A stretch of DNA of 64,000 nt, taken from the IMG/VR virus record IMGVR_UViG_3300028888_000069, positions 61,413 to 125,412 of that record; one strand, given 5' to 3'. The notes under the pieces were generated by a model that worked only from the letters and a program-made list of their open reading frames with translations, did not search any database and was not told the DNA's origin. Source of the DNA: a virus. Lineage: Duplodnaviria; Caudoviricetes. Of this stretch, positions 36,618 through 64,000 are shown one piece after another. Positions within the stretch are counted from its first letter, which is position 1. Every line of letters begins with the position of its first letter. The translations under genes were made by a program, and so were the position numbers.

Positions 36618-36619
36618 AA

Positions 36620-41824: not shown

Positions 41825-41826
41825 AC

Positions 41827-43522: not shown

Positions 43523-43524
43523 AA

Positions 43525-44241: not shown

Positions 44242-44255
44242 ATTACTATAAAATT

Positions 44256-44287
44256 AAAAAACTGGAATGGGCGAGAGCCCACCCCAG
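44256..44287 (-). terminator. Intrinsic terminator after the auxiliary capsid gene
   Basis: Minus strand CTGGGGTGGGC-TCTC-GCCCATTCCAG followed by a T run. Confidence 0.8.
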
Positions 44288-44326
44288 CTATTATGTTTTA
44301 ATATTTAACTAGAGAATTACGATTTA

Positions 44327-45349: not shown

Positions 45350-45374
45350 AATTTTTTAATTAATTTTTAGCATT

Positions 45375-46685: not shown

Positions 46686-46704
46686 TTAAAATACTTTTAA
46701 ATAA

Positions 46705-47562: not shown

Positions 47563-47594
47563 ATTAATTCATTAATCATTTTATATATTATAAT

Positions 47595-47622
47595 ATGTAG
47601 AGGAGATTGAACTCCTCTACAT
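47595..47622 (-). terminator. Stem-loop directly after the major capsid gene (terminator or mRNA stabiliser)
   Basis: Perfect 11-bp stem ATGTAGAGGAG-(6 nt)-CTCCTCTACAT, 21 nt downstream of the MCP stop. The U tract is weak. Confidence 0.7.
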
Positions 47623-47643
47623 TATCTATCTTAAAGTTTTTTA

Positions 47644-49065: not shown

Positions 49066-49095
49066 ATTTTCTATTTAACACTTTTATATATAATG

Positions 49096-50154
49096 TCAAT
49101 CTAAATCTTCTATTGATTTGATTGGCTGTCTATAACTATTATGTCCGGCAGAAGGTTGTCTTTGTATTACAACATTTGAAGGATTTTCTTTCTATCCATC
49201 TGCCAATCCTTGGTAGTAACGTGCTTCTGAAACACGCTTAATCTCATTAATAAAATAGTCAGAAATGTTATTTATAGCTTCCTCACCATTTAACATAAAC
49301 CAAGCTGCTCTTATTGCTTGATTAGGGTCTTGGATAGCTTTATAGAAATAATTCATTCCATTTTGATCTTGTCCAAGCATAAATGCCGCTAATTCCTCCT
49401 TATCGGCGTCTTCCATATTGATGTCTAGATTTCCCAATCTATCAAATCCTTGGATAGCATTTACTACGTTATTTTGATAATTCATAAAAGCCTCCTGTTG
49501 CTGTTGTTCATAATCAGCCTAGGCCTGCATTTCTTCGTAGTCTTCTCTTTGCTTGTATTCGTTTCTAATACCATCTACCTGCTTCTTATAAAGATCTTCA
49601 TCAAATTTAGCTGTATTTAAAGCCTATTCTATTTGAGCATCACTAAGTTCCCCAACTCTAGATTCTAGATCTAAAATATACAGTTCATCGTCTGATAAAT
49701 CGTCTACTTTATAAGCAGGAACACTATTTTGATCTACATAAGAATTTATTGCCTGTTGTTGGACAGCTGTCAAATAATCCTGCGGTGTTAAACCGCTTTG
49801 TCTCATATTATTTAATAAAGCCACTTCTTGATCAGCCAATCCATACTTATCCTCTATAGCAGCTTCTTGTTGTCCAGTAGGCGTATTAAGAATATTAATC
49901 TATTCTTCCCTACTTAAACTGTCCCAATCTCTTTCTTCTATTTGTCCATATTCGTTTTCGAATTTAATTCTGGACGGATCTGAAATCCCCTTACTTCTTA
50001 AAAAATCAGTGGTAAAATCTTCGGTTTCAGAATTATCACTGGAATTATTTTCATAAGGCTCTTCCTGGCCACCATAATTAGATTCTGAATAAGAATTACT
50101 TTCTTCTTGTTCTTCTTGTTCAAAATCATCAATTTCATCAATTCCTATTGCCAT
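49096..50154 (-). CDS. Acidic scaffold-like protein upstream of the MCP, 352 aa (TAG=Gln)
   Basis: Fragments 49192, 49624 and 49900 are in frame. Very acidic N-terminus; ends PIKSIEDLD-TGA at 49096. Confidence 0.7.
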
Positions 50155-50229
50155 ATTTATATAATTTATATATTAGTATCTTAAATATACTTAAATGTTA
50201 AAAAATGTCAAAATTTTTTTTTAAATTTA

Positions 50230-51192
50230 TTAAGAGATGTTAACATCTTCTGTTAAAAAATAACCTTCTTCATCTATAGTTCCTTCTATAGTAAAAGTTT
50301 TGGTTCCGGTTCCATTTCTTGCCTGTCCTTTAAATCTAGCTTTATTTTCGCTATTGTTTTTATATTCCGAATAATCAAATTTACAAGAATACTAAACATT
50401 ATTATATGTATACTCAACTATAAAGTAATTATTTATTATTCTGTCTTCAGCTTCTTCTCCCAAAAATGTTTTTCCTGGGATATCTTCGTCTTCATCTTCT
50501 TCTCCTCCCTCTTGATACACTGTAAGTAAATTAGATATTTCAATATTTTGGCTTGATTCTATTTTATCAATCTATAATATTGATTTTCCTTCTTCTGTTT
50601 TTAAAGAAAAACTTCCAGAAAATTCCTATAACGAATTTACAATTAAATCTCCTCTATTAGAAACAGAAATACTTTCATTTATAGATTCTAACCCATTTAT
50701 ATTTTTAACGTTTAAAGAATCTATGTTTGGAAGATTTAATAATAAATTAATTAAACTTCCATTATCATCAGCTATATATAAAGCTTTTTTGTCTTCTATA
50801 TAAACTATACCTTGTGAGACCTCTTGAGCATCTTCTAATGTGGGATAAATAAACCCAATGTTTTTTAATGCTTGATACTTCTAATCTAAAGAAGTTTCCT
50901 ACTCTACTTTAAAAGAAACATAGTCGTTACTTATTTCCCCTTTTAATGTATAAGTTTCTCCATTATTAATAATGTATATACTCCCGTCATCGGCTATGTA
51001 TATTCCATCTTCAGTTTCTTCACTTATATCATCTGTTTGTTTAATAAAGTAAGAGTCAGAACTTCCACCTATTTTTCCATCTTTAAATAAATTAAAGAAT
51101 TGTTTTCCGACTCTTACTTTTATTTCTCCTTTTGTATTTAGAACTAAATCAGTATTTCCTTTTCCAATTTCTCCATAGGATCTACCAAACAT
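50230..51192 (-). CDS. Hypothetical structural protein, 320 aa (TAG=Gln)
   Basis: Fragment 50899..51192 (MFGRSYGEIG...KGEIKVRVGKQF) continues through TAGs to TAA 50230. Confidence 0.6.
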
Positions 51193-51203
51193 CTAAAAAT
51201 CAT

Positions 51204-51446
51204 TCATAATATTAAATATTGTAAAGCTTTTAAAATAAATGCAATAATAGCACCTGTTCCTACAAATATAGTGTTTTCAAATATTTTACTCTTTTCTTTC
51301 TTATCTATCCATACTCCTATTAAAGCAAAAAATAGCAAAGATATAATTCCTGCCCATATTGAATACGAAAGACAATAAGTTGCAGACCATCCAGATAACA
51401 ATAATCCAAATATCTTAAAAGCTTTCTTTTTTAGCCATTCTTTCAT
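51204..51446 (-). CDS. Small membrane protein (80 aa, 2-3 TM helices) coupled to the endolysin; possible holin or lysis accessory
   Basis: Hydrophobic stretches and a basic N-terminus; TAATG overlap with the endolysin stop at 51446. Confidence 0.55.
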   Translation of the reverse strand: MKEWLKKKAFKIFGLLLSGWSATYCLSYSIWAGIISLLFFALIGVWIDKKEKSKIFENTIFVGTGAIIAFILKALQYLIL

Positions 51447-52228
51447 TATAAACTATTTAGGAATTTTTTCCATTCAGAACTTGTACTTCTTTCAGTAGTA
51501 GCTTTGCCTTCTTTACTATATATCTTAAAGTCATTCCATCCTATAATGCCTGGGCAGATTTTTCCAGATATATCATAATGTCTTACTACATTTTCCTTTG
51601 AGATGTTATACAAGTCCATTAAATATCTTACTAGTTTTTTGGCATTTTCTATTGAAGCTTCTGTAAAATACCATCCTGCGTGATTAGCCGCAGAAGCTGA
51701 AAATCCAGGTTTTAAATTAGAACAAATTTCTATACTTATAGTATTTTTATTTGTTGCTTTCCCATAAAGTTTGCCTCCATCAGAATAAGGATTTTTCTTA
51801 TCCCCAACAGACCAAGTGTAATAGTTTCTCAAATCAGGATTAATTTGAACTATAGTTGCATCATCAACTGCAAAGTCTGCACTTGCATTTCTTTTAAGAA
51901 ATACATTTCTAACTCCCATAGCACTTCCAGGTTTAGAAGAACCTCCAGCAGTATAATGGATAGCTATGTATTTTATAGGACGATTAGGGCTTCTTGTTAT
52001 ATGAACATTAATAAAACCTTTAGTTATCTTTATAGTATTATCATCTTTAAACATTTTTGCCCAAGTCAACGACCCTACTATTCCATCTGAAACCAATCCA
52101 TTTTCAGACTGAAAAGTTTTTACAGCCTCCTCTGTCTTAGGCCCAAAGATACCATCAACTGTAATACCTAAAGCCTGTTGTATCTTTTTTACATTATCAT
52201 TTTTGTCTCCTTTTTTAATTAAATCCAT
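51446..52228 (-). CDS. Endolysin: N-terminal peptidoglycan-binding domain plus N-acetylmuramoyl-L-alanine amidase (Amidase_2 type)
   Basis: DGIFGPKTEEAVKTFQSENGLVSDGIVGSLTW is a PG_binding_1 signature; IAIHYTAG...SISIEIC-like ISIEIC...VVRHYDISGKICP carries the Zn-amidase residues. Confidence 0.9.
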   Translation of the reverse strand: MDLIKKGDKNDNVKKIQQALGITVDGIFGPKTEEAVKTFQSENGLVSDGIVGSLTWAKMFKDDNTIKITKGFINVHITRSPNRPIKYIAIHYTAGGSSKPGSAMGVRNVFLKRNASADFAVDDATIVQINPDLRNYYTWSVGDKKNPYSDGGKLYGKATNKNTISIEICSNLKPGFSASAANHAGWYFTEASIENAKKLVRYLMDLYNISKENVVRHYDISGKICPGIIGWNDFKIYSKEGKATTERSTSSEWKKFLNSL

Positions 52229-52417
52229 TTTATGTTATGCTAGTTGTGCCTGCACATCCAGGCATTCATTATAAAGATCTGTTTTATTATATCTATCTAA
52301 AAGGCCATAAACGGCTTCAGTTTCTTTTTAAATTTAAGCAAATATTTTTTAATCTGCAAAAATTACACATAATTTTTTATTTAAATGAACACAAAAGCAA
52401 TAAGTATTAATATAGAA

Positions 52418-53218
52418 TTAACTTTCATAATCTCTTATATCAATCCCATAAAGTTCTTTATAGAGATCTAATAAATCTGAGACTTCACTATTCAATTTTA
52501 AATAATATTTCCCAAAACGTATTATAACCGAATACCTATATATAGTTTGAGAACCTTGATAATAAACTTGAACAGGCTCCATCCCTGTATAATATGCAAG
52601 AACATAAGTATTGTCACTACTACCAGCTACCGTAGGTATTAAAATGGCAATTTTTGTTTTATTTTCAATAAAAGGTCTAGTTAATGTAGCAACCCATGAA
52701 CCTCCTTGAATTTCTCCATCTGATTGTATGGAAGAAGCACTTATAGAAGACCTTAAATCAACTAATGTATAATTAACTGCCCTTGTACAATCCAAAGCAC
52801 CAGTTTCGGCATTTATACTTAATCCACTACCAACTTTTACTACACCATAGTCTTCAGTAGTTGCTTTTCTTTCTAAAAGAAATTTTCCATGTACTTGCGA
52901 ATCTGTTGAATAACCCAAAGAAAGATGAGTCCATTCATCATCATTAATATCGCTCATTCTTTGCGTTTTAACAAGTCCCATTCCATCAGATATTTCACTA
53001 GAATTTAAACCGCTTTCTATAACACTTATAGTCCCATCATCAGAAACTGTTATATTATCTCCTATTTTAACATTACCTAACTTTGTTTTTGATGCGATTA
53101 GAGTTCCATCTTCTTTAATGTTATCTATTTTATTATTAACACCTTTTAATTCTTTATCCAGTGTTTCTCCGTTGCCCATTATTTCACTGGTATGGGCTAC
53201 CATATGTTTTCCTTCCAT
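52418..53218 (-). CDS. Tail-fibre-like protein (266 aa)
   Basis: Two fibre-type repeats, ASKTKLGNVKIGDNITVSDDGTISV and ATTEDYGVVKVGSGLSINAETGAL. Confidence 0.55.
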   Translation of the reverse strand: MEGKHMVAHTSEIMGNGETLDKELKGVNNKIDNIKEDGTLIASKTKLGNVKIGDNITVSDDGTISVIESGLNSSEISDGMGLVKTQRMSDINDDEWTHLSLGYSTDSQVHGKFLLERKATTEDYGVVKVGSGLSINAETGALDCTRAVNYTLVDLRSSISASSIQSDGEIQGGSWVATLTRPFIENKTKIAILIPTVAGSSDNTYVLAYYTGMEPVQVYYQGSQTIYRYSVIIRFGKYYLKLNSEVSDLLDLYKELYGIDIRDYES

Positions 53219-53231
53219 AATAAATAATTAA

Positions 53232-53987
53232 TTATAATCCAAGTTCTGTTCTTGTTAAGCCATAAGCTTCAAAACCATTAGTTAAATCTACGTTAGTATA
53301 TGATAAAATTATATATGGAGTTTCAAAATATATTGTTAATTCAATATTATATAAATTTCCACCGACATATTCTAAGTGGAAAGTATAATGCCTAGCTCCT
53401 ATTAATTGCCACTCTGTTAGATAAGGAAATGTACTTGTATCATAAGATATTATATTTCTAGCTAATAATCCTCCAAAGTTTTTATTTTTCTTAAAGAAGT
53501 TTTCTATTGCTGTTTGATCTTCAGGAATTACAGTATGATTATTAAAGTCAGGTTGTATAACTAATGTACTTACATTTGATAAATAATCAAGTTTAATTTT
53601 ATCTTCAGGAGACATAGCACCACCAGTAGTAGTAGTTGCGTACTTTGCAGCTATTTTATTTTCTGTATATGTACCAAATTCAAGTGTATAATCAGATAAC
53701 TCAGGTGTAGTTATTGCACCATTTTTAGTAGTAATTACATTAGAAATCTTTACATATTGGCCTCCTACTTCTGGTTGTTCTGCTTCCTTCCATATATACT
53801 GTGAATTATCACTTGTTGATATATACAATTTCTGTTTTTCTCCAATACGTGGGAAATTCTCTATAGAATCATATTCAACAACAAATTCTTCTGGACAACA
53901 TCTTGGCAGCCATTCCTCATCAGGTTCATAATCAGGCGGTCTTCTCCAAGGCTTTTCTGTACAACCACAATTTTTTTTCTTAGCCAT
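53232..53987 (-). CDS. Tail-fibre-like protein (251 aa)
   Basis: VVEYDSIENFPRIGEKQKLYI...YIW and ATTTTGGAMSPEDKIKLD are motifs common in Bacteroidota phage fibre proteins. Cys-rich N-terminus. Confidence 0.5.
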   Translation of the reverse strand: MAKKKNCGCTEKPWRRPPDYEPDEEWLPRCCPEEFVVEYDSIENFPRIGEKQKLYISTSDNSQYIWKEAEQPEVGGQYVKISNVITTKNGAITTPELSDYTLEFGTYTENKIAAKYATTTTGGAMSPEDKIKLDYLSNVSTLVIQPDFNNHTVIPEDQTAIENFFKKNKNFGGLLARNIISYDTSTFPYLTEWQLIGARHYTFHLEYVGGNLYNIELTIYFETPYIILSYTNVDLTNGFEAYGLTRTELGL

Positions 53988-54531
53988 TTTGATTGGTATT
54001 AATACTATTTTCTTTTTTAACTATTCCTTTCTTATTTTTTTCTAAGGTTTTTAAAGTTTCTTCTACTTCATTGGGTTCTACCCCCAATTTACTGGCTATT
54101 TCTCCAGTAAGATATTTCTTTAAAAGTCTTAAAAAAGTCATCTATGGATATAATATAAGCATCGAAGCACAGGATGACCATAATTCTATTAAAACTATTA
54201 TTGCCCCTATAATACTTGCTGATATAACTTCCCCTATCATTTTATCTAATCCTACAAAAGCACTTAAGGTGCAACCATAAATAGCTAATTTTACTATTGT
54301 TAATCTGGCTAATTCTGATAGTGTAAATTTTCCTTGTTTTACACTTACAGCAATTCCCCATGCAGCATCCATAATAGTTATAAAAACTACTAAAAAACAT
54401 ATAAAGACGTGTCCCGCAAAATAATCAGCTATAAAGGTTCCTAAAACAGTTAACCACCCTGTAAATGTGCTTAATGAAGTTGTAAGTTTTGCCCCAACTT
54501 TTGATAGAAAAGGCAACATAATTCCTTTCAA
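53980..54531 (-). CDS. Phage holin (holin-4-like), 183 aa with one internal TAG read as Gln
   Basis: Three to four TM segments (VVFITIMDAAWGI...KLAIYG...IVLIELWS). After TAG 54142-54144 the frame continues MTFLRLLKKYLTGEIASKLGVE..., the usual C-terminal tail of this family, to TAA 53980, overlapping the next start by 8 nt. Confidence 0.8.
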
Positions 54532-54624
54532 TTAAAATATAATGTGTATTATAAATTTTTTATAAATCTAACTATTGCAAACTAAAATTATTATTGCCTT
54601 ATCTTATATAATGTTTTTAATATC

Positions 54625-54825
54625 TCAATAAAACTCTTCATCTTCATCAGCAAGATTCTCTATTGCTTCTCTTCGTTTAAACCATTCCTCGTATTCTTCA
54701 TCACTCGCATCCCGCCAGTTCTCTTCTTTATCTCCTCTTCCAAGCATTACTTCCTTGCAATAGAGTCTTTCTATATCATTCATTTCATAGGCTTGAGTAA
54801 GCCACATACCTTCTTTCGCTATCAT
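54625..54825 (-). CDS. Small acidic protein after the adhesin/fibre gene (possible fibre assembly chaperone), 66 aa
   Basis: AKEGMWLTQ...KEVMLG...ENWRD...EEYEEW pattern, seen downstream of Bacteroidota phage fibre genes. Confidence 0.55.
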   Translation of the reverse strand: MIAKEGMWLTQAYEMNDIERLYCKEVMLGRGDKEENWRDASDEEYEEWFKRREAIENLADEDEEFY

Positions 54826-54830
54826 ATATA

Positions 54831-57647
54831 TTATTTAGTTAAAGTTATTCCTTTGCTTGTGATATTATCTCTCTCTGCTTGAGTCAGTGCATTATAACTT
54901 GCTGTAGACAATTTCACAGTTATATTCTGTGCAGGAGCAGAGTTGGTGTATAGACTTGCATACAATGTGTCATGTCCTGCTGATGTAGTTCCCCATTTAA
55001 CCAAAGCAGAAAAATCATAACTTGTAAGACTGCTCTTGCCAAGATTGTTGATTGTCAATTCTTCAAGTTCATCACAACCTTGAAAGATGCCAGTAATATC
55101 AGTTACAACATCAAAGTCCAAACTCTCCACCCTTTTGAGCGAAGAACAATTCCTTGCAAAATATCTGAAAGTAGTATTCTTTGAAGAGTCAAGAGCAGGT
55201 ATCTCAACCAAAGTCCTACAATAGTCAACCATACTTTGCATATTAGTTGTGTCTTCCGAGTTAATTATGTTAGGCATAGTAACCATCTTTACACACCCAT
55301 AGAACATCTCTTGCATGGTGGTGCAACTTGATGCGTCAATCTCATCAGGGAAATTCTCAAGGGATATACAATTTTTGAACATTCTTCCCATATTAACCAC
55401 ATCCTCAAATCCATCCAAAGTCCCAATTTCCACCAACGAATAGCAGTTGCTAAACATATACCTGCAATCACTTAATTTAGTTATATTACCCACTTTGGTC
55501 AACGAATAACAATCCTGAAATGTTTGATAGCCAGTTGTAGGCAAATTCCCAACTTGTTTTAACGAATAGCAGGCTCTAAAAGTATTTAAATTAAATTTCA
55601 ACCCAGTGTTCCATTCAATATCAGGAATTGTGATAAGATTCCAACACCCATAGAATACATGAGATGGCGACCCCGTAAACCCACTCCAATCCATAACTGG
55701 TAGGTACACAAGATTCTTGTCACCATTATCTGCGTCTGGCACACCATTAAATGTTCTTCCCGCTTGTCCTTTCAAAGGTAGTGCATAAGCCACGCCATCA
55801 TTATCAATAGGAAGAGTAGCACCTTTGGATAATATGTCATAGCCAAGCAAACTTATACTCGCCATTCCTACAGCACTCTCCACACTATTGGTTTCAATTA
55901 TTGTTCCATTATTGTCAACGTCTATAAGCCCCTTGTCAAATTTACCTTTCAACACAAAAGCCTCATCAGCAGTATCAAATGTGTGAACAAATACTTTGTC
56001 TATCTTATAATGTATATAAGTGTTTGTTGGCAAATTGCTGACCGTAAGCCTTAAACTAACGGAAACATTGGTAACATTAGTTAGAATAACCTGTGTAATC
56101 CAAGTAGGAACACCAATGGTGGAACTTACAGTTGTTGTTGATATAGTTGTTGAAACTTGAGTATGTGCATTATTATTGGATGGTATTGCATAATAGGCAT
56201 TAGATGGGACAGACACAACGTCATTATAAGTATTCACCCTCAATGCCACAAGTACATATCTGTTGTCCGTTGCAATTTGGTAATAATAAGGCATTGTGAA
56301 AGTGAAATTAACCGCTGATGTTGTGCATTCCACCTCTTGTTCCTCAATAAGTGTAGGAGCAACCTCATTATAATAATCTTGCACAACAACCGCAGAGTTT
56401 TTCTTGTTGTCCATCATTTGATAAGCAAGATACCCATGAGCATTGTCATATATGTAATTATCCCTATGTAAAGTGTCTTGTATATAAAGATACCCGTCAC
56501 AAGGACTTGTGTACACTCCATAGAGTCTTCTTTGCTCGTTGAGTGCCACAATCTCATAATCTGTATTTGTGTATATGAGTGAATATTTTGTAGGGGAGAA
56601 TATGTCCAACAACAACTTGTCGCCCTCTTTCACGTCAATCCTAACAAGCCTACTCCCAAGTCTTGCATATTGGTAGGCATTGATATTATTAACCTTTAAG
56701 CCTGAATTGTAAGAACTATATTCCTCATTAACTATGATAGGACACAAATCCCCAATCTCAAGAACTCTATTGCCCGCATTGTTGCAATAACCGAGTGTAT
56801 CAGTTGCATTGTTGGCAATAACACTTTCCTCACTCCACCCCTCTATTAATCTACAAGTGGCTTTAGACAAGTCAATAGGCTTATGTTGTACCCATTTGTA
56901 CACATTCATGCTGACTCCAGGCACTCTAATTCTTGTGGAATCTGAATTTGACCATATAAATTGTACAGCCATGCTTTTTACCCCCGTAGGAATGGTAATC
57001 TCGGCAGAATAGTCATAGTCAGCTGAACCGCCATAAGCATCCCCACTTACAAAATGGTTTGCCAAGCCTTGTATAATTGATTGCCAAGTGTTCCCATCCA
57101 TATCAGCCTTATTGGTGGAAGAGTCTATAATATTAGCCATGTGCATCTCTTCAACTGTAGAATCATAGAGTGCATATGCGTGTCTATCAGATATACTTAA
57201 CAATCCCTCTACTTTCCATTTTTCCCCCGCTTTAACATCAAACAAAAAGACCATAACATCTCTTGTCGGATATAGAGAACCCTCATTATATCCCCCACTT
57301 ACAGCAGTTCTTCTTATTAAGTAATTGACGTTAGTTGACGCCTTTAACCCACCATATTCCCTCAACATATCTGCCCAATAGTAAGACTCGTCGCCCAATA
57401 TATCCACGACATCTTCAGTAAGCACCTCAATAGCCTCCTGCACATTCCCAGCACCTAATTGAGTGATTGAGTCATCATAAGTGATAGATAATGCATCCGT
57501 GCTTATATTGTCTAATGCCTCTTGTACCTCCTCGTTTATTGTTTCTTGGTCTTTACCTACGTTGTCATCAACAACTTGGTCAGCAGACACTACCTTTTGG
57601 TCTTCTGCCATAGACCTAAATGTTCCATATATATTTATATTCGCCAT
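54831..57647 (-). CDS. Receptor-binding/adhesin-like protein (938 aa) with C-terminal BspA/DUF285-type leucine-rich repeats
   Basis: Repeats VFYGCWNL, TFRACYSL, TFQDCYSL, MFSNCYSL, MFKNCISL, MFYGCVKM, FARNCSSL, IFQGCDEL; C-terminal LTQAERDNITSKGITLT. N-terminal anchor-like SADQVVDDNVGKDQETIN...NVQEAIE. Confidence 0.75.
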   Translation of the reverse strand: MANINIYGTFRSMAEDQKVVSADQVVDDNVGKDQETINEEVQEALDNISTDALSITYDDSITQLGAGNVQEAIEVLTEDVVDILGDESYYWADMLREYGGLKASTNVNYLIRRTAVSGGYNEGSLYPTRDVMVFLFDVKAGEKWKVEGLLSISDRHAYALYDSTVEEMHMANIIDSSTNKADMDGNTWQSIIQGLANHFVSGDAYGGSADYDYSAEITIPTGVKSMAVQFIWSNSDSTRIRVPGVSMNVYKWVQHKPIDLSKATCRLIEGWSEESVIANNATDTLGYCNNAGNRVLEIGDLCPIIVNEEYSSYNSGLKVNNINAYQYARLGSRLVRIDVKEGDKLLLDIFSPTKYSLIYTNTDYEIVALNEQRRLYGVYTSPCDGYLYIQDTLHRDNYIYDNAHGYLAYQMMDNKKNSAVVVQDYYNEVAPTLIEEQEVECTTSAVNFTFTMPYYYQIATDNRYVLVALRVNTYNDVVSVPSNAYYAIPSNNNAHTQVSTTISTTTVSSTIGVPTWITQVILTNVTNVSVSLRLTVSNLPTNTYIHYKIDKVFVHTFDTADEAFVLKGKFDKGLIDVDNNGTIIETNSVESAVGMASISLLGYDILSKGATLPIDNDGVAYALPLKGQAGRTFNGVPDADNGDKNLVYLPVMDWSGFTGSPSHVFYGCWNLITIPDIEWNTGLKFNLNTFRACYSLKQVGNLPTTGYQTFQDCYSLTKVGNITKLSDCRYMFSNCYSLVEIGTLDGFEDVVNMGRMFKNCISLENFPDEIDASSCTTMQEMFYGCVKMVTMPNIINSEDTTNMQSMVDYCRTLVEIPALDSSKNTTFRYFARNCSSLKRVESLDFDVVTDITGIFQGCDELEELTINNLGKSSLTSYDFSALVKWGTTSAGHDTLYASLYTNSAPAQNITVKLSTASYNALTQAERDNITSKGITLTK

Positions 57648-57661
57648 AGTACTATCATTTT

Positions 57662-58489
57662 TTATGTTGTTGTTACTGAAAAATACATCGTGTGTGGGAT
57701 TATCTTGTTAGTACTACGATAGCAATAGAAATCCCCCACTTGTATAGGACTATTCATAGGCACTTGAACCGCATTGCTTATTACCTTTGCAATCGTTCCA
57801 CTTGTACATATCCACAAGTAATTAGTGCTTGGGATAACAATACTATAATCGCCAGTGTCATCCGTCACGTTACGATATTGCAAGTTAGTAAGGTTTTCAA
57901 TATCACTTTGGCTTGACAATGTAGCACCACCAATACCAATATACAAGTTACCTATTACAGGCACAACAGGAGGCGGTGTGTCACCACCACTGCCACCACT
58001 GCCACCTGAAAACGAGGTAGGCAATTGCAATTGATGTAATGTCAATTCTCCAATTATATACGTTCCATACCTACCACGTTGAAACTTATAGTTAGTAGGC
58101 TCATAACCCTCCAAACAAGCACAATACGTTTCTTTTAACGTGTAGTAAGACTTAATCCACAATGCTCCATTTGTCATGTAATCAACAAAGGCATCGTGTT
58201 GCACCGCCACGTCTATCGTATTGATGGCATACCTTTCCGATACAATGAACGTAACCTTTATGTCGGTATTCTTCGTGATAACCACAGGATTATCATTCAA
58301 ATCAAATGTGGTTATCATAAAGTCCTCTTCTTGTGTGTCATTCCATTGTTCATTGTATATGTTAACTGGTTCACCCCTTGACATCAATCCGTCAATCTTT
58401 AAGATACGCACACCATCAAACTTGCTCGTTATATCCGTGTACGTTTCCGACCCACGTTTAACATAATATTTACTACGTAAATTATACAT
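57662..58489 (-). CDS. Distal-tail (Dit)-like protein with a fused C-terminal module after a Gly/Pro linker (275 aa)
   Basis: Second gene downstream of the tape measure. GEPVNIYNEQW...HDAFVDYMTNG; linker GGSGGSGGDTPPPVVP; module YLWICT...VPM...YCYRS. Confidence 0.55.
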   Translation of the reverse strand: MYNLRSKYYVKRGSETYTDITSKFDGVRILKIDGLMSRGEPVNIYNEQWNDTQEEDFMITTFDLNDNPVVITKNTDIKVTFIVSERYAINTIDVAVQHDAFVDYMTNGALWIKSYYTLKETYCACLEGYEPTNYKFQRGRYGTYIIGELTLHQLQLPTSFSGGSGGSGGDTPPPVVPVIGNLYIGIGGATLSSQSDIENLTNLQYRNVTDDTGDYSIVIPSTNYLWICTSGTIAKVISNAVQVPMNSPIQVGDFYCYRSTNKIIPHTMYFSVTTT

Positions 58490-58524
58490 ACCACATATTA
58501 TCTTTAGTTTAGTTTTAAATTAGA

Positions 58525-59118
58525 CTATAACCTTAATTCCTTACTAAATTCCTTAACCTTTTCCGACAAACAATACTTTCCCTTTTCAACATTACAATTA
58601 TCCGAATACTTGTATATCACAACGTCCGTGTCCTCATCACAATTGTCTATCACAACTTTACTTTCGTCAAACAAATACACCCTCAATGAATTGTATCCGT
58701 CACAACATATCGTTACGTTTGATTTGTTGCTTATATATATCGTGGGACACTTTGTTTCCGCTACATTGATAGTTATGCCATTGCAATACATGAAATGACT
58801 AACATCCACGTCCAATGGCATAACATCCGACTTGTAATCCACATACAACTTGTACGAATAACCATGCACACCATCACAATCAAACAACGTTGTGTCGTTT
58901 ATATAATCCTTGTACTCTTCCAACAAGTACTCTTTGCTTAAACCGTCACCCTTGTAACAATAAGTGGCAAAGAACGGAATTGCTTGTTGTATCATAGCCA
59001 ATTCCACTAACCTTGACTTGTTACCATTTGCACCCCTCCAATAGTTTTTGTATTCTTCACACAAACCATTCGTAAGTGCGTTCTTGTAAAACATAAACAT
59101 ATCTTTGTCCATCATCAT
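58525..59118 (-). CDS. Conserved protein following the tape measure in Bacteroidota siphoviruses (197 aa); ends in TAG
   Basis: NALTNGLCEEYKNYW motif and a C-terminal beta-rich repeat (TIYISNKSNVTI...RVYLFDESKVVI...VVIYKY). Stop at 58525-58527 is TAG. Confidence 0.65.
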   Translation of the reverse strand: MMMDKDMFMFYKNALTNGLCEEYKNYWRGANGNKSRLVELAMIQQAIPFFATYCYKGDGLSKEYLLEEYKDYINDTTLFDCDGVHGYSYKLYVDYKSDVMPLDVDVSHFMYCNGITINVAETKCPTIYISNKSNVTICCDGYNSLRVYLFDESKVVIDNCDEDTDVVIYKYSDNCNVEKGKYCLSEKVKEFSKELRL

Positions 59119-59139
59119 AATCTTACAATATAAAAGGTT

Positions 59140-62100
59140 TTAAGCAATCATTTCAACACGTACTGCGTTGCCACTTGGATTTGACCAACCAGTCAATAGC
59201 ATTTGTATCGCCATCTGTACTTGATAACTTTGTTGCAAAGATAATAAAATTTGTGCATTTGTAGCATTTTGTAGTTCAAAATCATACATGGTCAACACAT
59301 CTCTTATTTGTGTCAACAAATCTGATTGTAGATATACTTGTTGCGATACGGAGTTCATATAAGCCTCTAACGCACCAGCGGTGTCCTCCGTTATACCTTG
59401 TATCCCTTGTTGTAATGCACTTAATTCCTTATCCGAATTTTCCCCAAATGTAAAGTTTTCTTGTATTTTGTCATATAATAGTCCAGCAATCTTTTCCCCC
59501 TCGCTTTTTTGACCTATCATATAATCTATACTTGCTTGTGTGGCATCCAAACTTGCTTGGTCTAATCTTTCATTTATTCCATTGATAACCTCGTTTTGTG
59601 CTTGAATTTGGGTATTTTTCCAGTCCTCAATATCTTGTTGGGATATTTGGTTATTATAATATTTTGTCCATTCCATACCCGAATAATCTTTTCCCTCAAA
59701 ATGTTGTTCGGTTAATATTCTCTTAATATCTTTATCGGACATCCCCTTAATTTGGTCTATTTTTTGTTGTGCATCGGCTTTTTCTTTGGCAATATCTTCG
59801 GTATAAGATTTTTCTATATTTTCTACCCCTTTTAATACATTGTCCCACCATTTTTGCATAACGGAACTAACAATAAATTTCATAATCATATTGTCTATCA
59901 TTTCGTCCCATTTTTCAGAAAAAACTTTCATTGCGTCCTCACCATCCCTAAATGCATCAATCATTGATTGAACTAATTCCTCTGCAAAACTACCTGCGTC
60001 TGAAATACCTAATAAATTATTGCTTATTTCCTTTGATAGATTGTTAAGTTCATTTTCCAAATCAATCACTTGCCCTTGTAAATCTATAATTTTTTCTTTA
60101 TCCCTATCTTTTTTTCTACGGGATTGTTCAAGTTTCAGTTGTCGTTTTGTTTCAACTAATTGTAATTGCTTGTTTGCTATAATCGCTTGTCTTGCACCAA
60201 CCTCTAACGCACCATAAGAATCGTCTGCTTGTTGCTCAAGGTTTTTAAGAGTATTTTCTAATCTTTTAACTGCACGTTCACTTTGTGCTATTTTCTTATC
60301 AATTTTTGCGTTGTTATAATTAGCAATAAAATTAAGGGATGCAATTAACCCTGCAATAGCCATACCAATCACCGCTACCCAACCTAACGATGTTTCAGCA
60401 ATTTCCGCTATTGTAATAACCAATCCCAATGCCTCTGCGACTTGTTTAAAACCATTTGCCAATTCGTTTATCGCCATACCTTGTGCGGAATCGTCAGCAA
60501 AACCAAACATATCACCGACATTTTCTAATGCACTTGCCATATTATTCAAAACAGTTTGTGCATTTTTAGTAGCATTAACAAAGGCTTTGGTGTTCCCCCT
60601 ATTATTTGTTTGTGCGTCCGAATACTCGCCTTGTGCAATACGTAATTTATATAATAATTGTTTATATTTTGTAAATAGGTCAAGAATTGATATGGTTTCA
60701 TCACCAAGAGTTACAAAACTATTGGAAAGACTTTGATTGATAGCCTCTGCTGACATTCCACTTTCGGTTGCTGAATCAATCCATGCTTGTGTAGACGTAA
60801 AGAAATCTTCTATATTATTATAGCCTAAATCTTTATTAGCATCATTCTCAAACAAAGTGTTTAATTGTTCAACCTCTTTTTTAATGTCCTTTATATTTTT
60901 TTTCGCTTCTTTTAATGCTTTTGTGGAGTCCCATAAAGTTAGGAACGATTTAAACATGGTTTCAAATGGACTGCGACCCTCTAATTCTTCACGTATTTTT
61001 TTATAAGCACTCATCCATGCCTTTACACTTTCAGGACTATCTTCTATTTTATCCTTAACCTTGTCCATCTCACTTAAAAGATGTTCTAATGAAAGTGTTC
61101 CAATTCTATCCATATCCTCAAAAATAGTCACATACTCATCACTCTTTTTAAAGTTTTCCCAATATTCTTTTGAAATTCTTTCATCCGATTTATTGGAAAT
61201 GGACATCGCAATCACACTTGCTTTCCCTTTCTTGTTATTAGGTAATTTACTAATAACTTTGGTCATTAAATATCCTAATTCGTCACTTAAACGATTAATC
61301 TCTTCGGGGTCTTGTGAAATCTTTATGGCTCTTGCCAAGTCCATCGCTTTTATTCTTTCGTCATTTGTACCATATTGCATCACCACACTCCTCATTTCTT
61401 CCGCAGTATCACGTTTTATTTGCATTAATTTATCGTCAAATTCCCCATATTTCTTTATTAATTCATCCCATAATTTCTTCGTGTTCTTAAATTCATCTTT
61501 ATATAATTTCATTATTTCTTCGTGCTTTGCCTTGAATGCTTGATACACTGGACTATCCTTACCTAAAAACTCACCGATATTCTTTACACTTTCTTCAAGT
61601 CTAACGTCAACCTCAAAAGGTAACATATAGCCACCTGACAAAATTGTGGCTTCAGGTAACTCAAATGAAAGTTCCGCTAATTTAGTAGCCTCATTTATAT
61701 GACTAAAATCAGCCTTTAATCTATTAAGAAGATTTAAAGTTTCTTGAAATTCCGAGTTTATATCTTTTACATAATCATTTAATGTTTGTGGTGCTTGTAA
61801 CGCAAAACCACTTGCATCTTCAAACCCCATTAGTTTCGCAATGTTATCCATCAACTCTGGGTCTTCGTCATAAGCAATATAAAACTCATATTGTTCGGAA
61901 TCCATTTTTAATTTTCTTTCCAAAGACGAACTTATATTTTCAGCGACCTCTGCCATTGATGATGTAATTAGTTTTAGCATTTCCTTTTCCACCTCTTTAA
62001 AGTCCTCTGGAATCGCCTTATTGCTTTTCTTTAATTCATCTAATTGGCGATTAAAGAAATTATATAAAGATGAATAATCAATTAAGCCGTCTTTTGTAAA

Positions 62101-63999
62101 GAATTTGTCAACACCAATACTATCTAATTCTAAACCGTATTTGTTTAGAGTTTGATTTACTTTCTTAAAGGACTCACCAAATTCTTTTTCAAGAGTTTCC
62201 TTTATATTCTTAATTGGGATACCTTTACTGCGTAATTTGTCATATTCTTGTCGCAATGTTTCTATAAGACTTATTTCTTCCTTTAAAGTCTTTGCAAGTT
62301 CAGTTTCTGCATGGTGCTGCGCTCTTGCCGCTGCCGCCGCTTGTCTTCTTCTTTCTGCTGCCGCTTGCCTTGCGTTTTTTTGTGCTAACCTATTAGCCTT
62401 ATCTCTTGCTATTTGGTCGGCTTTTTCCTTTTGTTCGTCCCATGCAATTTTATCTAAAAGTTCTTTTTGCTTAAGTAGATATTTCTTTTTATCTTCCCAA
62501 CGTTTAATTTCAGCCGCATCATTTCTTCTTCTTGCTTCTGCAAGTCCCCTCTCCGTATCTTTTAAATCTTCATTAACCTTTTTTAATTTAGCATTATTTT
62601 TCCTTTGGTCTTCCAAGACATCACCCGAATCACCACCAAAGTCCAAAATAACAGGAATGGATATAGTCAACATATTAGCCAAATTTACAATTCTGACTAC
62701 ATCATTGTATGCGGATATATTATTTTGTTTAAACAACTCTAATATTTCATTTATTTTCGCCTTTCCCGCTTCAGTTGTCATATCAAATGCTTTTGTTCCA
62801 TTCTCCGTAAACTCACGATACATATCTTGTACCATTGTATAATGAGAATTTTTCATCCAATCCACAAAATACTGATAAGATATTCTATTATTAGTCCATG
62901 TGTCTTGAAAAATCCTCTTCATTATAAGTCCTTGTTTTCTTGTTTCCTCGTTTGTACTTTGTGTCATTTTCATTATGACGGACATATAATGATTATACAA
63001 CTGGTTGTTTAACTCTCTTTTAAATTCAAATGCTTGGGTAGCGGTCATCTTTTCCGACTCTGCTATGTTTTTCGCAACCTCGTCAGAGTAAACCATCATT
63101 TGAGTTAATTGTGATGTAAAATCATCCTCGTTAAAATTACCCCCCATGAAAGTGATTTTCCCAAATTGCAAATTTAATTGCTCCACAATGTCGGATGCGG
63201 TTGTTGAAACCTCATCTTTAAACTCATTGATTGCATCATGGAAAATAGCCTTATCTGCAGCATCAGCCATCCCTTGTTTGAGTTTTTCTTGAAAGTCTTT
63301 AAGTGCGTCCATATAGTCTTGTAGGTCACTTTTTAAACCCTCACCAAAAGACCCCCACAACCATGTGTCTTGATTCACGGTTATAGCCATGTCATTCAAT
63401 TCTTGTAAAGCACCGATAGCCTCTTGTATTGAATGAGTTAATTGCAAACCTTTGCCAACACGTTCCGATATGTTGTCTATTTGCATTAATCTGTCAATAT
63501 ATATTTGAGATGTTGATGTAGACTGTTCTATTTGAGTTTTTATTTCGCCCCACGCATTTCTTGCTTTTGTCAAGTCAATATCGTTGTAACCTATTAATTC
63601 ACCCTTATCATTTCTTTTATAAATTTCATCTTCAAGTTCTCTATAACTTTTCAAAAATTCCACAAGGGAGTTTGATGTTTCTTTGGCATTATTTCTTATT
63701 GACTCATTTAATTGTCTATTTTTCTCATCCACTCGATTAGCATGACCTAATAAGTCAAATATTGCCGTTAAAACAATACCAACCCAACCAAGTGCGGAGG
63801 TAAATACTGTTTTAATAGAATTTTTAATATTTGTAAATGTTGTCGTTATTTTTTTACCAAAAGTGGCAGTTGACGCAGTTGCCCAATTTAACGTGGTCGC
63901 CCATATCGTTATCATTTGGACAAACTTAACACCAATTAAAGCAAGACCAACAGATTTAATTACCCTTTCAATTGATTGCCAATTAGCAAATAATGTTTT
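59140..63999 (-). CDS. Tail tape measure protein, partial (5' end beyond the window), >1,600 aa
   Basis: Frame stays open to the window edge. Long helical/coiled-coil protein with two hydrophobic segments (ALGWVGIVLTAIF; LGWVAVIGMAIAGLIA). C-terminus LSALQQGIQGITEDTAGALEAYMNSV is typical of Bacteroidota siphovirus TMPs. No TAG in frame. Confidence 0.85.
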   Translation of the reverse strand, partial: KTLFANWQSIERVIKSVGLALIGVKFVQMITIWATTLNWATASTATFGKKITTTFTNIKNSIKTVFTSALGWVGIVLTAIFDLLGHANRVDEKNRQLNESIRNNAKETSNSLVEFLKSYRELEDEIYKRNDKGELIGYNDIDLTKARNAWGEIKTQIEQSTSTSQIYIDRLMQIDNISERVGKGLQLTHSIQEAIGALQELNDMAITVNQDTWLWGSFGEGLKSDLQDYMDALKDFQEKLKQGMADAADKAIFHDAINEFKDEVSTTASDIVEQLNLQFGKITFMGGNFNEDDFTSQLTQMMVYSDEVAKNIAESEKMTATQAFEFKRELNNQLYNHYMSVIMKMTQSTNEETRKQGLIMKRIFQDTWTNNRISYQYFVDWMKNSHYTMVQDMYREFTENGTKAFDMTTEAGKAKINEILELFKQNNISAYNDVVRIVNLANMLTISIPVILDFGGDSGDVLEDQRKNNAKLKKVNEDLKDTERGLAEARRRNDAAEIKRWEDKKKYLLKQKELLDKIAWDEQKEKADQIARDKANRLAQKNARQAAAERRRQAAAAARAQHHAETELAKTLKEEISLIETLRQEYDKLRSKGIPIKNIKETLEKEFGESFKKVNQTLNKYGLELDSIGVDKFFTKDGLIDYSSLYNFFNRQLDELKKSNKAIPEDFKEVEKEMLKLITSSMAEVAENISSSLERKLKMDSEQYEFYIAYDEDPELMDNIAKLMGFEDASGFALQAPQTLNDYVKDINSEFQETLNLLNRLKADFSHINEATKLAELSFELPEATILSGGYMLPFEVDVRLEESVKNIGEFLGKDSPVYQAFKAKHEEIMKLYKDEFKNTKKLWDELIKKYGEFDDKLMQIKRDTAEEMRSVVMQYGTNDERIKAMDLARAIKISQDPEEINRLSDELGYLMTKVISKLPNNKKGKASVIAMSISNKSDERISKEYWENFKKSDEYVTIFEDMDRIGTLSLEHLLSEMDKVKDKIEDSPESVKAWMSAYKKIREELEGRSPFETMFKSFLTLWDSTKALKEAKKNIKDIKKEVEQLNTLFENDANKDLGYNNIEDFFTSTQAWIDSATESGMSAEAINQSLSNSFVTLGDETISILDLFTKYKQLLYKLRIAQGEYSDAQTNNRGNTKAFVNATKNAQTVLNNMASALENVGDMFGFADDSAQGMAINELANGFKQVAEALGLVITIAEIAETSLGWVAVIGMAIAGLIASLNFIANYNNAKIDKKIAQSERAVKRLENTLKNLEQQADDSYGALEVGARQAIIANKQLQLVETKRQLKLEQSRRKKDRDKEKIIDLQGQVIDLENELNNLSKEISNNLLGISDAGSFAEELVQSMIDAFRDGEDAMKVFSEKWDEMIDNMIMKFIVSSVMQKWWDNVLKGVENIEKSYTEDIAKEKADAQQKIDQIKGMSDKDIKRILTEQHFEGKDYSGMEWTKYYNNQISQQDIEDWKNTQIQAQNEVINGINERLDQASLDATQASIDYMIGQKSEGEKIAGLLYDKIQENFTFGENSDKELSALQQGIQGITEDTAGALEAYMNSVSQQVYLQSDLLTQIRDVLTMYDFELQNATNAQILLSLQQSYQVQMAIQMLLTGWSNPSGNAVRVEMIA

Positions 64000-64000
64000 T

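What the first reader, a model, noticed from the sequence alone, without database searches (positions are those of the whole stretch)
54532..64000. Abrupt switch from a recoded crAss podophage to a siphovirus tail module: hybrid genome or chimeric assembly
Seen: right of the holin, more than 3,000 codons (TMP, Dit-like, 938-aa adhesin and others) have no in-frame TAG despite dozens of Gln codons, and one gene ends in TAG (58525). G+C and CpG are visibly higher. By eye I found no GATC or CTAG and only one AGCT (57021) in 54625-64000, while these words are common to the left (e.g. 53392, 53516, 54283, 54427). Established: Crassvirales are short-tailed and encode no tape measure or Dit. The join is co-oriented and falls in a fibre/lysis neighbourhood, a plausible site for either recombination or misassembly. 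If real, this is a two-code, two-morphotype genome (cointegrate or integrated phage). Misassembly is the more conservative explanation.
Basis: partly seen in the sequence, partly recalled or inferred. Interest (0 to 1): 0.8.

Follow-up and report, generated by a model that had tools for sequence, protein, structure and literature searches.

The report
Chimeric contig through a shared adhesin gene
The "crAss phage with a siphovirus tail" is most likely an assembly artefact: two separate gut phages, one with a changed genetic code, carry nearly the same 2.6-kb adhesin gene, and the assembler crossed from one phage to the other inside it.

Summary
Right of about 54.8 kb the sequence has no GATC or CTAG, one AGCT and no in-frame TAG, and one gene ends in TAG. 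The left side is a TAG=Gln crAss-like phage with a Crass_capsid major capsid protein.

The right end is a real siphovirus piece. It holds the C-terminal 1,619 aa of a tape measure protein cut by the contig end, a 197-aa protein, a 275-aa Dit and the first 47 aa of the 938-aa adhesin. Its relatives lie in GATC-free siphophage-like contigs with their own capsid, terminase and lysis genes.

The physical join is not supported.
- In a sheep-gut run, depth is about 20x on the crAss side, about 24-29x with two alleles over the adhesin body, and 10.7x on the siphovirus side.
- One ENA assembly holds two separate contigs, 111 kb crAss-like and 64.6 kb siphophage.
- Two JGI contigs each stop at 57157-57207.
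- A related recoded contig runs crAss-type TerL and portal into the same adhesin body through a different N-terminus that holds TAG codons.

So the adhesin body (54839-57422) is truly shared by both phages, and the rest of the join is a chimera. The 275-aa protein is the Dit, not the 197-aa one. Exchange of receptor-binding modules is a known kind of event, so interest is modest.

The parts
1..51207 (-). Late (virion) genes of a TAG=Gln recoded crAss-like phage. They include the major capsid protein at 47644-49065.
   Evidence: Reading TAG as Gln joins the fragments into long frames. There are 285 in-frame TAG. Crass_capsid PF23898 matches at E=4.9e-14, above the cut-off. Crass_capsid and CrAss_Ring_1 are on record for identical proteins. 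Gene-by-gene synteny holds with MT835470 and MT835492 up to 51207.
51204..54531 (-). Lysis-region block of the crAss-like phage: 89 aa, amidase endolysin (51446-52228), 266 aa, 251 aa and 183 aa. Composition is crAss-type, but TAG is rare.
   Evidence: Amidase_2 plus PG_binding_1 and endolysin PHROGs. GATC, CTAG and AGCT are present, and tetranucleotide usage correlates 0.80-0.83 with the crAss arms. It is linked to the capsid gene in the 111-kb ENA contig and in a Logan contig. TAG is 2 of 24 Gln-type codons. MT835470 and MT835492 have no homologues.
54625..54825 (-). 66-aa gene that travels with the adhesin gene, on the crAss-only side of the shared stretch.
   Evidence: Homologues lie directly after adhesin homologues in L024 (44% identity) and L029 (84%). 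In run X1 it lies on the 19.7x crAss contig that ends at 54808.
54809..54838 (.). Left edge of the stretch shared by the two phages. This is a real mosaic junction in the crAss-like genome.
   Evidence: In X1 the crAss contig (19.7x) ends at 54808 and a two-allele bubble (17.5x and 11.7x) starts at 54839. Three assemblies cross this edge: this contig, JGI L022 and the ENA 111-kb contig.
54831..57506 (-). Adhesin body (residues 48-938 of the 938-aa frame, with DUF285/BspA-type repeats near the C-terminus). It is present in both the crAss-like phage and the siphophage.
   Evidence: DUF285 PF03382 matches at E=1.8e-9, above the cut-off. It has 0 TAG in 24 Gln codons and 1 of 15.5 expected GATC/CTAG/AGCT. 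Depth in X1 is 24-29x with two alleles. It is linked to crAss lysis genes in L022 and to a crAss TerL-portal block in L030. It is linked to the Dit and the 197-aa gene in bovine runs that lack the crAss side.
57157..57207 (.). Most likely point where the assembler crossed from the crAss-like phage to the siphophage.
   Evidence: L021, from the siphophage side, ends at 57157. L022, from the crAss side, ends at 57207. They overlap by only 51 bp. The ENA siphophage contig ends at about 57117 and the crAss-type L030 ends at 57174.
57423..57647 (-). Siphophage-specific 5' end of the adhesin gene. The N-terminal 47 aa have no counterpart in the crAss-native form.
   Evidence: X1 unitigs branch at 57393-57422, where depth falls from 24.3x to 10.7x. 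L030 differs from the window from 57423 on, and all similarity ends at residue 48. Residues 1-76 are 58% identical to the same gene in siphophage contigs L013 and L017.
57662..58489 (-). 275-aa distal tail protein (Dit) of the siphophage.
   Evidence: The predicted N-terminal domain (1-157) aligns to Dit chains of monocin, 80alpha, TP901-1, p2, SPP1 and Bxb1 with Z 8.4-11.4 and Foldseek probability up to 0.95. Model quality is middling (pLDDT 64.7). Syntenic homologues lie after the tape measure gene in L013-L020.
58525..59118 (-). 197-aa siphophage protein of unknown role, between the tape measure and Dit genes. It ends in TAG.
   Evidence: It is conserved at 46-50% identity in the same position in L013-L020. 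The model shows helices followed by a confident beta-rich C-terminal half, with no PDB match at E<=0.001. The stop codon is TAG.
59140..64000 (-). C-terminal 1,619 aa of a tape measure protein. The 5' end is cut off by the contig end.
   Evidence: It aligns from its first residue to the last two thirds of the 2,333-aa protein of L013, which matches tape measure phrog_9959 at E=1.7e-54. The same gene is 2,326 aa in the ENA siphophage contig. The C-terminus is 38% identical to the annotated tape measure of Bacteroides phage C3_41T2LP. X1 depth is 10.7x.

Best explanation
The contig joins two different phages.

Phage 1 is a crAss-like podophage. Its late genes read TAG as Gln. Its true gene order here is TerL, portal, fibre genes, adhesin, 66-aa gene, lysis genes, capsid gene.

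Phage 2 is a standard-code siphophage that lacks GATC. Its order here is tape measure, 197-aa gene, Dit, adhesin.

Both phages carry nearly the same adhesin body, about 890 residues with DUF285 repeats. The DNA is 91-100% identical, in a patchwork of identical and diverged stretches. Each phage fuses this body to its own N-terminal part that fixes it to the virion: about 157 residues with TAG codons in the crAss lineage, and 47 residues in the siphophage.

Shown: the shared stretch, the two alleles, the depth step, the separate contigs and the crAss-native upstream path in a relative. Inferred: the short-read assembler walked from phage 1 into the shared stretch and left it on the phage 2 side at about 57157-57207, then ran on until the next branch inside the tape measure gene, where the contig ends.

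The shared gene itself reflects recent exchange of a receptor-binding module between two phages that probably infect the same ruminant gut Bacteroidota host. That host is inferred only from the crAss-like type and from distant relatives of the tape measure protein in Bacteroides and Parabacteroides phages. The gene has no TAG codon and has the siphophage's avoidance of these words, so the likelier direction is siphophage to crAss-like phage (my estimate about 65%). A TAG-free gene works under either code.
For: 1. Depth (run X1, sheep gut, Logan contigs).
- The crAss contig 51000-54808 is at 19.7x.
- 54839-55044 is present as two alleles: 17.5x identical to the window, and 11.7x with 17 differences.
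- Invariant pieces of the adhesin are at 24.3-26.3x.
- The siphophage contig 57393-64000 is at 10.7x.
- So the adhesin depth is roughly the sum of the two flanks.

2. Independent assemblies.
- ENA ERZ27257205 holds a 111,324-bp crAss contig that starts with the last 187 aa of the adhesin.
- It also holds a separate 64,591-bp contig with a full 2,326-aa tape measure gene, the 197-aa and 275-aa genes, and the first 177 aa of the adhesin at its end.
- JGI L021 equals window 57157-63242 at 99.98% identity, and JGI L022 equals 53376-57207 at 99.8%. They come from different samples and share only 51 bp.

3. The crAss-native path. L030 is the end of a 46-kb recoded contig with crAss-type composition.
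- It carries TerL and portal, 47-50% identical to those of MT835470, then several genes.
- It ends in a frame whose first 157 aa are unrelated to the window and hold two in-frame TAG.
- Residues 158-268 of that frame are 86% identical to adhesin residues 48-158.
- The X1 unitig 56323-57422 differs from the window at the same positions as L030 (57301-57347). L030 diverges further from 57423, exactly where the X1 unitigs branch.

4. The siphophage stands alone.
- L013's 65-kb record has an HK97-type capsid protein (phrog_29), a tape measure protein (phrog_9959), a terminase-like protein, a holin and an endolysin. It has no Crass_capsid match and no GATC in 65 kb.
- Bovine runs X2, X3 and X6 hold the adhesin, Dit and 197-aa genes at 90-95% identity with no crAss flank.

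5. Composition and code differ sharply between the two sides.
Against: - No raw reads or read pairs could be laid. The depths are means over Logan unitigs, and some small unitigs were not listed.
- Summed depths in the adhesin vary from 17.6x to 29.2x, so 'sum of two genomes' is only approximate.
- X1 may be the sample this contig came from, or a sister sample. It is then not independent of the contig, though its graph still shows the branch.
- L030 comes from another sample and shares only 313 bp with the window. It shows the crAss-native path in a relative, not in this very phage.
- The two ENA contigs add up to 175.9 kb. This is close to the roughly 180 kb implied by the record's 69% completeness estimate and to the 167-191-kb contigs that carry relatives of L030's portal. 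A single large genome is therefore not excluded by size alone.
- CpG depletion in the adhesin body (0.39) resembles the crAss part, not the siphophage part (0.90), so the direction of transfer is not settled.
Confidence: 0.85

Rival explanations
1. Real hybrid or cointegrate: one genome of about 176-180 kb carries both the crAss virion genes and a siphovirus tail module, and assemblies break in the adhesin gene only because that gene is polymorphic.
For: - This contig joins the two sides.
- The two ENA contigs sum to 175.9 kb, near the size implied by the 69% completeness estimate.
- Relatives of L030's portal sit on 167-191-kb contigs.
- Both ENA contigs end inside the same gene.
Against: - There is a twofold depth step (about 20x against 10.7x), and two adhesin alleles have depths matching the two flanks.
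- The adhesin region is deeper than either flank, which one molecule cannot give.
- The related siphophage record has its own capsid, terminase-like and lysis genes and no crAss gene.
- A crAss-type TerL-portal block leads into the same adhesin through another N-terminus.
- Bovine runs hold the siphophage side without the crAss side.
Confidence: 0.05
2. A minority recombinant: some crAss-like genomes in the sample have really recombined with the siphophage inside the shared gene, giving packaged or replicating hybrid molecules beside the two parents.
For: Between 51 bp and 2.6 kb of identical sequence in two phages that probably share a host is a good substrate for recombination. The mosaic pattern of alleles shows that recombination happens in this gene: L022 carries the X1 minor allele at 55089-55146.
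Against: - No assembly other than this contig shows the join.
- Such a molecule would lack the crAss TerL and portal genes, or exceed the head capacity, so it would be a dead end.
- Unitig data cannot detect a rare form either way.
Confidence: 0.06
3. Everything right of about 54.8 kb is chimeric: the crAss-like phage does not carry the adhesin gene at all.
For: The composition and TAG usage of the adhesin body are siphophage-like. An X1 unitig boundary lies at 54808-54839.
Against: - Three assemblies cross 54808-54839 into the adhesin gene. One of them, a 3.9-kb JGI contig from another sample, reaches 57207.
- The allele identical to the window has crAss-like depth (17.5x), and total depth there exceeds the siphophage depth.
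- L030 enters the same gene from the crAss TerL-portal side.
Confidence: 0.03

Closest known systems
Chimeric contigs in short-read viral metagenome assembly, formed at sequence shared by two genomes (studied on simulated gut viromes in PMC3901335)
   Same: Two genomes of different depth are joined through a near-identical stretch. Contigs from other assemblers and samples break at the edges of that stretch.
   Different: Here the shared stretch is not a generic repeat. It is a whole receptor-binding gene body shared by phages of two morphotypes and two genetic codes. Part of the apparent foreign segment (54839 to about 57157) is therefore correctly placed.
Modular exchange of tail fibre or receptor-binding proteins between unrelated phages: a lineage-specific N-terminal anchor with a swappable distal part (established phage biology, from my own knowledge). 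For gut phages, horizontal transfer of tail-associated BACON domains among crAss-like and other lineages (PMC6949934).
   Same: The N-termini are lineage-specific (157 aa crAss-type against 47 aa siphophage-type). The distal adhesin is shared from residue 48 on. It lies in the fibre region between the portal and capsid genes, where the relative MT835470 has fibre genes.
   Different: The partners are a TAG=Gln recoded crAss-like phage and a standard-code siphophage. The domain is DUF285/BspA-type, not BACON. Identity is high enough (91-100% at the DNA level) to confuse assemblers. No binding function was tested.
Siphovirus tail-tip gene module: tape measure, Dit, Tal, receptor-binding protein (SPP1, TP901-1, p2, 80alpha)
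   Same: There is a tape measure homologue. The 275-aa protein has a Dit N-domain fold (Z 8.4-11.4). A large adhesin follows.
   Different: An extra conserved 197-aa protein sits between the tape measure and Dit genes. No Tal-like gene was recognised between the Dit and the adhesin. The major tail and chaperone genes lie beyond the contig end.
Stop-codon recoded crAss-like phages: TAG=Gln in late genes and standard code in early genes (known from the literature on recoded gut phages, from my own knowledge)
   Same: The early arm is free of in-frame TAG. Late genes use TAG for about 35% of Gln-type codons. The relative MT835492 is also recoded, while MT835470 is not.
   Different: No suppressor tRNA was found in the 125-kb contig. 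The lysis block and the acquired adhesin are nearly or fully TAG-free.

Membership tests
Crassvirales-type phage (left part of the window) | crAss-type major capsid protein | tested here: met
   PF23898 Crass_capsid matches at 46.6 bits, E=4.9e-14, above the cut-off, in window 47644-49065. The same family is on record for the identical protein.
Crassvirales-type phage (left part of the window) | crAss-type terminase and portal upstream of a fibre block and the capsid gene | tested here: inconclusive
   Both are absent from this contig. They are present in this order in the relative MT835470 (phrog_6681 at E=8e-70, phrog_6547 at E=4e-59) and in L030.
Crassvirales-type phage (left part of the window) | crAss ring protein and giant cargo or RNA polymerase proteins downstream of the capsid block | tested here: inconclusive
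   CrAss_Ring_1 is on record for the 229-aa protein. Frames of 3,409 and 3,515 aa exist but gave no PHROG match, and the polymerase motifs were not examined here.
TAG=Gln recoding (code 15-like) | Many in-frame TAG in otherwise intact late genes, and no gene ending in TAG | tested here: met
   There are 285 TAG in 22 late genes, and all their stops are TAA or TGA. The frames join under TAG=Q. No suppressor tRNA was found.
Siphovirus tape measure protein (59140-64000) | Homology to a recognised tape measure family, at the position before the tail-tip genes | tested here: met
   It is 35% identical over 1,618 residues to the L013 protein, which matches phrog_9959 (tail length tape measure) at E=1.7e-54. 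The window's own fragment matches only phrog_21917, of unknown function. Its C-terminus is 38% identical to an annotated tape measure protein.
Distal tail protein Dit: the 275-aa protein | N-terminal tail-tube-like Dit domain, encoded after the tape measure gene | tested here: met
   VIA-align gives Z 11.4 (monocin tip), 10.8 (80alpha), 9.8 (TP901-1), 9.2 (p2), 8.7 (SPP1 Dit) and 8.4 (Bxb1), over model residues 1-157 against chain residues 1-135 or so. The model is middling (pLDDT 64.7).
   Foldseek found no PDB match at E<=0.001, and no Dit is among the weak rows. The model has low confidence in its N-terminal half. Pfam gave nothing, and PHROGs gave only a weak match to a family of unknown function.
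Siphovirus tail module as a whole | Major tail protein, chaperones and Tal | not testable with these tools
   The genes upstream of the tape measure gene lie beyond the contig end. In L013 the upstream genes match only PHROGs of unknown function. No Tal-like gene was recognised.
DUF285/BspA-type repeat adhesin (938-aa frame) | PF03382 repeats | tested here: met
   PF03382 matches at 37.8 bits, above the cut-off of 25, at residues 721-811. Homologues P0003 and P0004 carry the same family.
Chimeric (misjoined) contig | Depth step across the join, and a sequence shared by two genomes at the join | tested here: met
   Depths are 19.7x, then 24-29x with two alleles, then 10.7x.
Chimeric (misjoined) contig | Independent assemblies do not reproduce the join, and each parent has its own continuation | tested here: met
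   The ENA assembly holds two contigs, and JGI L021 and L022 both stop at 57157-57207. The crAss-native continuation is seen in L030. The siphophage continuation past the adhesin is seen in L029, which matches the start of the L013 record.
Chimeric (misjoined) contig | No read pairs or long reads span the join | not testable with these tools
   Only Logan contigs of the runs were available, not raw reads.

The most novel reading that the evidence does not exclude
A TAG=Gln crAss-like podophage and a standard-code siphophage in the ruminant gut repeatedly trade genes: the whole adhesin body, and also members of an early-gene family (94-99% DNA identity in patches). The code difference would act as a one-way valve. 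TAG-free genes can move into the recoded phage, but TAG-bearing late genes cannot move out. The palindrome-poor, TAG-free islands in the crAss-like genome would then be footprints of that one-way traffic.
Probability: 0.3. Interest if true: 0.55.

Novelty: new member of a known kind. Interest (0 to 1): 0.3.

Why it matters
As a curation point, this IMG/VR record should not be read as a tailed crAss phage or a two-code genome. About 6.8 kb at its right end belongs to another virus. Completeness, host and morphotype calls based on the whole record would be wrong.

As biology, it is a clean example of a receptor-binding gene shared at near-identity by phages of two morphotypes and two genetic codes, with lineage-specific anchors. 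It points to a common host. It also gives a natural case for asking whether stop-codon recoding biases the direction of gene flow between phages. Exchange of fibre modules is well known, so the advance is modest.

Tried and rejected
- Terminal repeats and circularity: no exact repeat of 20 bp or more at the contig ends.
- Terminase_6N search of the record: no match. This fits a fragment, not a phage without a terminase.
- Exact look-up of the 938-aa protein: not on record elsewhere. Its relatives were not found in viral contigs.
- An exact 47-bp pattern from 57160-57206 found nothing in metagenome contigs, although JGI contigs L021 and L022 hold it. That collection evidently lacks them, so the blank means nothing.
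- The record behind L030 is not held, so I could not test whether its far end matches this contig's left end.
- PHROG scans of the large late proteins gave no match.
- Was the contig's left end (genome 1-8.7 kb) also misjoined? The ENA, JGI and Logan contigs are collinear across it, so I rejected this.
- The 197-aa protein as a Dit: no structural support.
- Parts of the stretch without cover in runs X2, X3 and X6 (the crAss side and the tape measure gene) are used only together with the contigs that do cover the adhesin, Dit and 197-aa genes. On its own, absence of cover proves nothing.
Full report
**Setting**

The window is the last 64,000 bases of a 125,412-bp IMG/VR virus record. The record is classed linear, with an estimated completeness of 69%. 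Plus-strand replication genes in the standard code fill genome 1-53.7 kb: family A DNA polymerase, NrdD, ligase, helicases and primase. Minus-strand late genes fill the rest. Reading TAG as Gln joins the late fragments into long frames.

The 473-aa protein at 47644-49065 matches Pfam Crass_capsid above the cut-off. Identical proteins in other assemblies carry Crass_capsid and CrAss_Ring_1 on record. Only two GenBank phage records share this capsid protein over its full length: MT835470 at 71% and MT835492 at 60%. Gene-by-gene synteny with both runs from the left edge up to the 325-aa gene that ends at 51207, then stops.

In MT835470 the region upstream of that point holds several fibre-like genes, then the portal and TerL. 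That is the usual crAss order. This contig has neither a portal nor a TerL gene.

**The observation**

- Word positions: the last GATC is at 53516 and the last CTAG at 53458. After 54427 there is a single AGCT, at 57021.
- Depletion: against the crAss background, the three words together are 1 observed against 15.5 expected in 54839-57422 (P=3e-6). They are 0 against 39.3 in 57423-64000 (P=8e-18). Markov expectations also predict several of each.
- TAG usage: the late genes use TAG for 35% of Gln-type codons. The tape measure fragment has 0 of 94 and the adhesin body 0 of 24. The 197-aa gene ends in TAG, while no crAss late or lysis gene does.
- Tetranucleotide usage: the right end correlates 0.56-0.68 with a siphophage relative and 0.10-0.28 with the crAss late arm.
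- CpG: it is high only right of 57.4 kb.

**What the right end is**

The open frame at 59140-64000 runs off the contig. It aligns from its first residue to the last two thirds of a 2,333-aa protein in IMG/VR contig L013, which matches the tape measure family phrog_9959 at E=1.7e-54. The 197-aa gene, the 275-aa gene and the first 76 residues of the 938-aa frame follow in the same order in L013-L020.

The 65-kb record behind L013 looks like a separate phage.
- It has an HK97-type capsid protein, a terminase-like protein, a holin and an endolysin.
- It has no Crass_capsid match and not one GATC.

The predicted N-domain of the 275-aa protein aligns to the Dit proteins of 80alpha, TP901-1, p2, SPP1 and Bxb1 with Z 8.4-11.4. 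The 197-aa protein gave no structural match. So a tape measure protein and a Dit are really encoded here, but the Dit is the 275-aa protein.

**Is the join real?**

Four lines of evidence say it is not.

1. Other assemblies keep the two sides apart.
- ENA assembly ERZ27257205 holds identical proteins on two contigs. The first is 111,324 bp and starts with the last 187 aa of the adhesin. It continues through the 66-aa gene and the lysis genes to the Crass_capsid gene. The second is 64,591 bp and carries a complete 2,326-aa tape measure gene, then the 197-aa and 275-aa genes. It ends after the first 177 aa of the adhesin.
- JGI contig L021 equals window 57157-63242 at 99.98% identity. JGI contig L022, from another sample, equals 53376-57207 at 99.8%. 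They share only 51 bp.

2. Depth in sheep-gut run X1, which holds 91% of the sampled words.
- The crAss-side contig (51000-54808) is at 19.7x and the siphophage-side contig (57393-64000) at 10.7x.
- Pieces of the adhesin gene between them are at 24-26x.
- At 54839-55044 two alleles are present: 17.5x identical to the window, and 11.7x with 17 differences.
- The adhesin body is therefore present in two genomes whose depths match the two flanks.

3. The crAss-native path can be seen in a relative.
- L030 is the end of a 46-kb contig that is TAG-recoded and has crAss-type composition.
- It holds TerL and portal genes, 47-50% identical to those of MT835470, then a run of further genes.
- Its last frame has 157 N-terminal residues unrelated to the window, with two in-frame TAG. 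Residues 158-268 are 86% identical to adhesin residues 48-158.
- The X1 unitig 56323-57422 differs from the window at just the positions where L030 differs (57301-57347).
- L030 starts to differ further at 57423, exactly where the X1 unitigs branch and depth falls from 24.3x to 10.7x.

4. The siphophage context exists without the crAss phage.
- Three bovine runs hold the adhesin, Dit and 197-aa genes at 90-95% identity and nothing of the crAss flank.
- L029 carries an adhesin allele (92%) and a 66-aa homologue (84%). Converging genes follow that resemble the start of the L013 record. L029 has siphophage-type composition.

**Reading**

Two phages share the adhesin body (window 54839-57422). Its left edge, at 54809-54838, is a true mosaic junction inside the crAss-like genome. 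Three assemblies cross it, and the depth of the matching allele agrees.

The right part of the contig is a misjoin. It comprises the 47-residue siphophage anchor, the Dit, the 197-aa gene and the tape measure fragment. The crossover most likely lies in the identical 51 bp at 57157-57207. The contig then stops at the next branch, which is also where the X1 unitig stops.

I put this reading at 0.85. The other readings:
- A true single hybrid genome, 0.05. Sizes alone would allow it: 111.3 + 64.6 kb is close to the size implied by the completeness estimate, and portal relatives of L030 sit on 167-191-kb contigs. Depth, the two alleles and the alternative paths argue against it.
- A rare real recombinant beside the two parents, 0.06. 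Contig data cannot exclude it.
- The crAss phage does not carry the adhesin at all, 0.03. Linkage on both sides contradicts it.

**How the shared gene probably works**

This part is inference.
- The N-terminal part fixes the protein to the virion and is specific to each lineage.
- The body carries DUF285/BspA-type repeats near the C-terminus, and I take it to be the part that binds the host.
- It lies in the portal-to-capsid interval, where the relative MT835470 has its fibre genes.
- The small 66-aa gene travels with it, even in distant homologues at 31% and 44% identity. It may be an assembly helper.
- The body has no TAG and avoids GATC, CTAG and AGCT as the siphophage lineage does. This favours transfer from the siphophage into the recoded phage. 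Its low CpG does not fit that neatly, so the direction stays open.

**Comparison with what is known**

Chimeric contigs at shared sequence are a known hazard of viral metagenome assembly (PMC3901335). Swapping of distal fibre parts behind lineage-specific anchors is established phage biology. Horizontal transfer of tail-associated binding domains among crAss-like and other gut phage lineages has been described for BACON repeats (PMC6949934). What is particular here is that the partners differ in both morphotype and genetic code, and that identity is high enough to fool an assembler.

**Limits**
- No raw reads were available, so the depths are unitig means.
- X1 may be the source sample or a sister sample.
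- L030 is a relative, not this phage.
- The structure models are of middling confidence.

Noticed in passing
L009:1805-2226 (genome 1805-2226, outside the window): The crAss-like contig encodes a full-length tmRNA (Rfam RF00023, 91.8 bits; ARAGORN tag peptide GETTYRMAA) directly followed by tRNA-Leu(TAA). No suppressor tRNA(CTA) was found anywhere in the 125-kb contig, despite heavy TAG=Gln use.
   Followed up: partly
L009/L010, genome 5.8-21.5 kb (outside the window); L029:5660-6452: The early-arm stretch at genome 5796-21524 has no CTAG and only 5 GATC. L029, a siphophage-type contig, shares patches of 94.6-98.6% DNA identity with genes at genome 7.7-18.2 kb. This would be a second region of exchange between the two phage lineages.
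   Followed up: partly
L003-L008 (MT835470, MT835492): The nearest GenBank relatives differ in code and in word avoidance. MT835470 uses the standard code and has no GATC in 117 kb. MT835492 is heavily TAG-recoded (up to 128 TAG in one gene) and keeps GATC.
   Followed up: partly
window 51204-54531: The lysis block of the recoded phage is almost TAG-free: 2 of 24 Gln-type codons, P=0.003 against the late-gene share. It has no homologue in the two relatives. It may also be a recent acquisition, or it may be expressed before suppression sets in.
   Followed up: no
window 55089-55146 and 57301-57347: The adhesin alleles are mosaic. The crAss-linked JGI contig L022 carries, at 55089-55146, the variant that is the minor allele in run X1. 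This points to ongoing recombination or gene conversion between the two phages' copies.
   Followed up: partly
window 64000 (contig end, inside the tape measure gene): This contig and a Logan contig of SRR9006805 end at the same base inside the tape measure gene, while the ENA contig runs through it. There is thus another graph branch there, from a repeat or a strain variant.
   Followed up: no
L022:3826-3856 against window 53356-53386: JGI contig L022 ends in a 31-bp inverted copy of the adjacent sequence. This looks like a hairpin-type assembly artefact at an inverted repeat in the 251-aa gene region.
   Followed up: no
window 58525-59118: A conserved 197-aa gene sits between the tape measure and Dit genes in all siphophage relatives found. 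Its predicted C-terminal half is a confident beta-rich domain with no solved counterpart found, and its role is unknown.
   Followed up: partly
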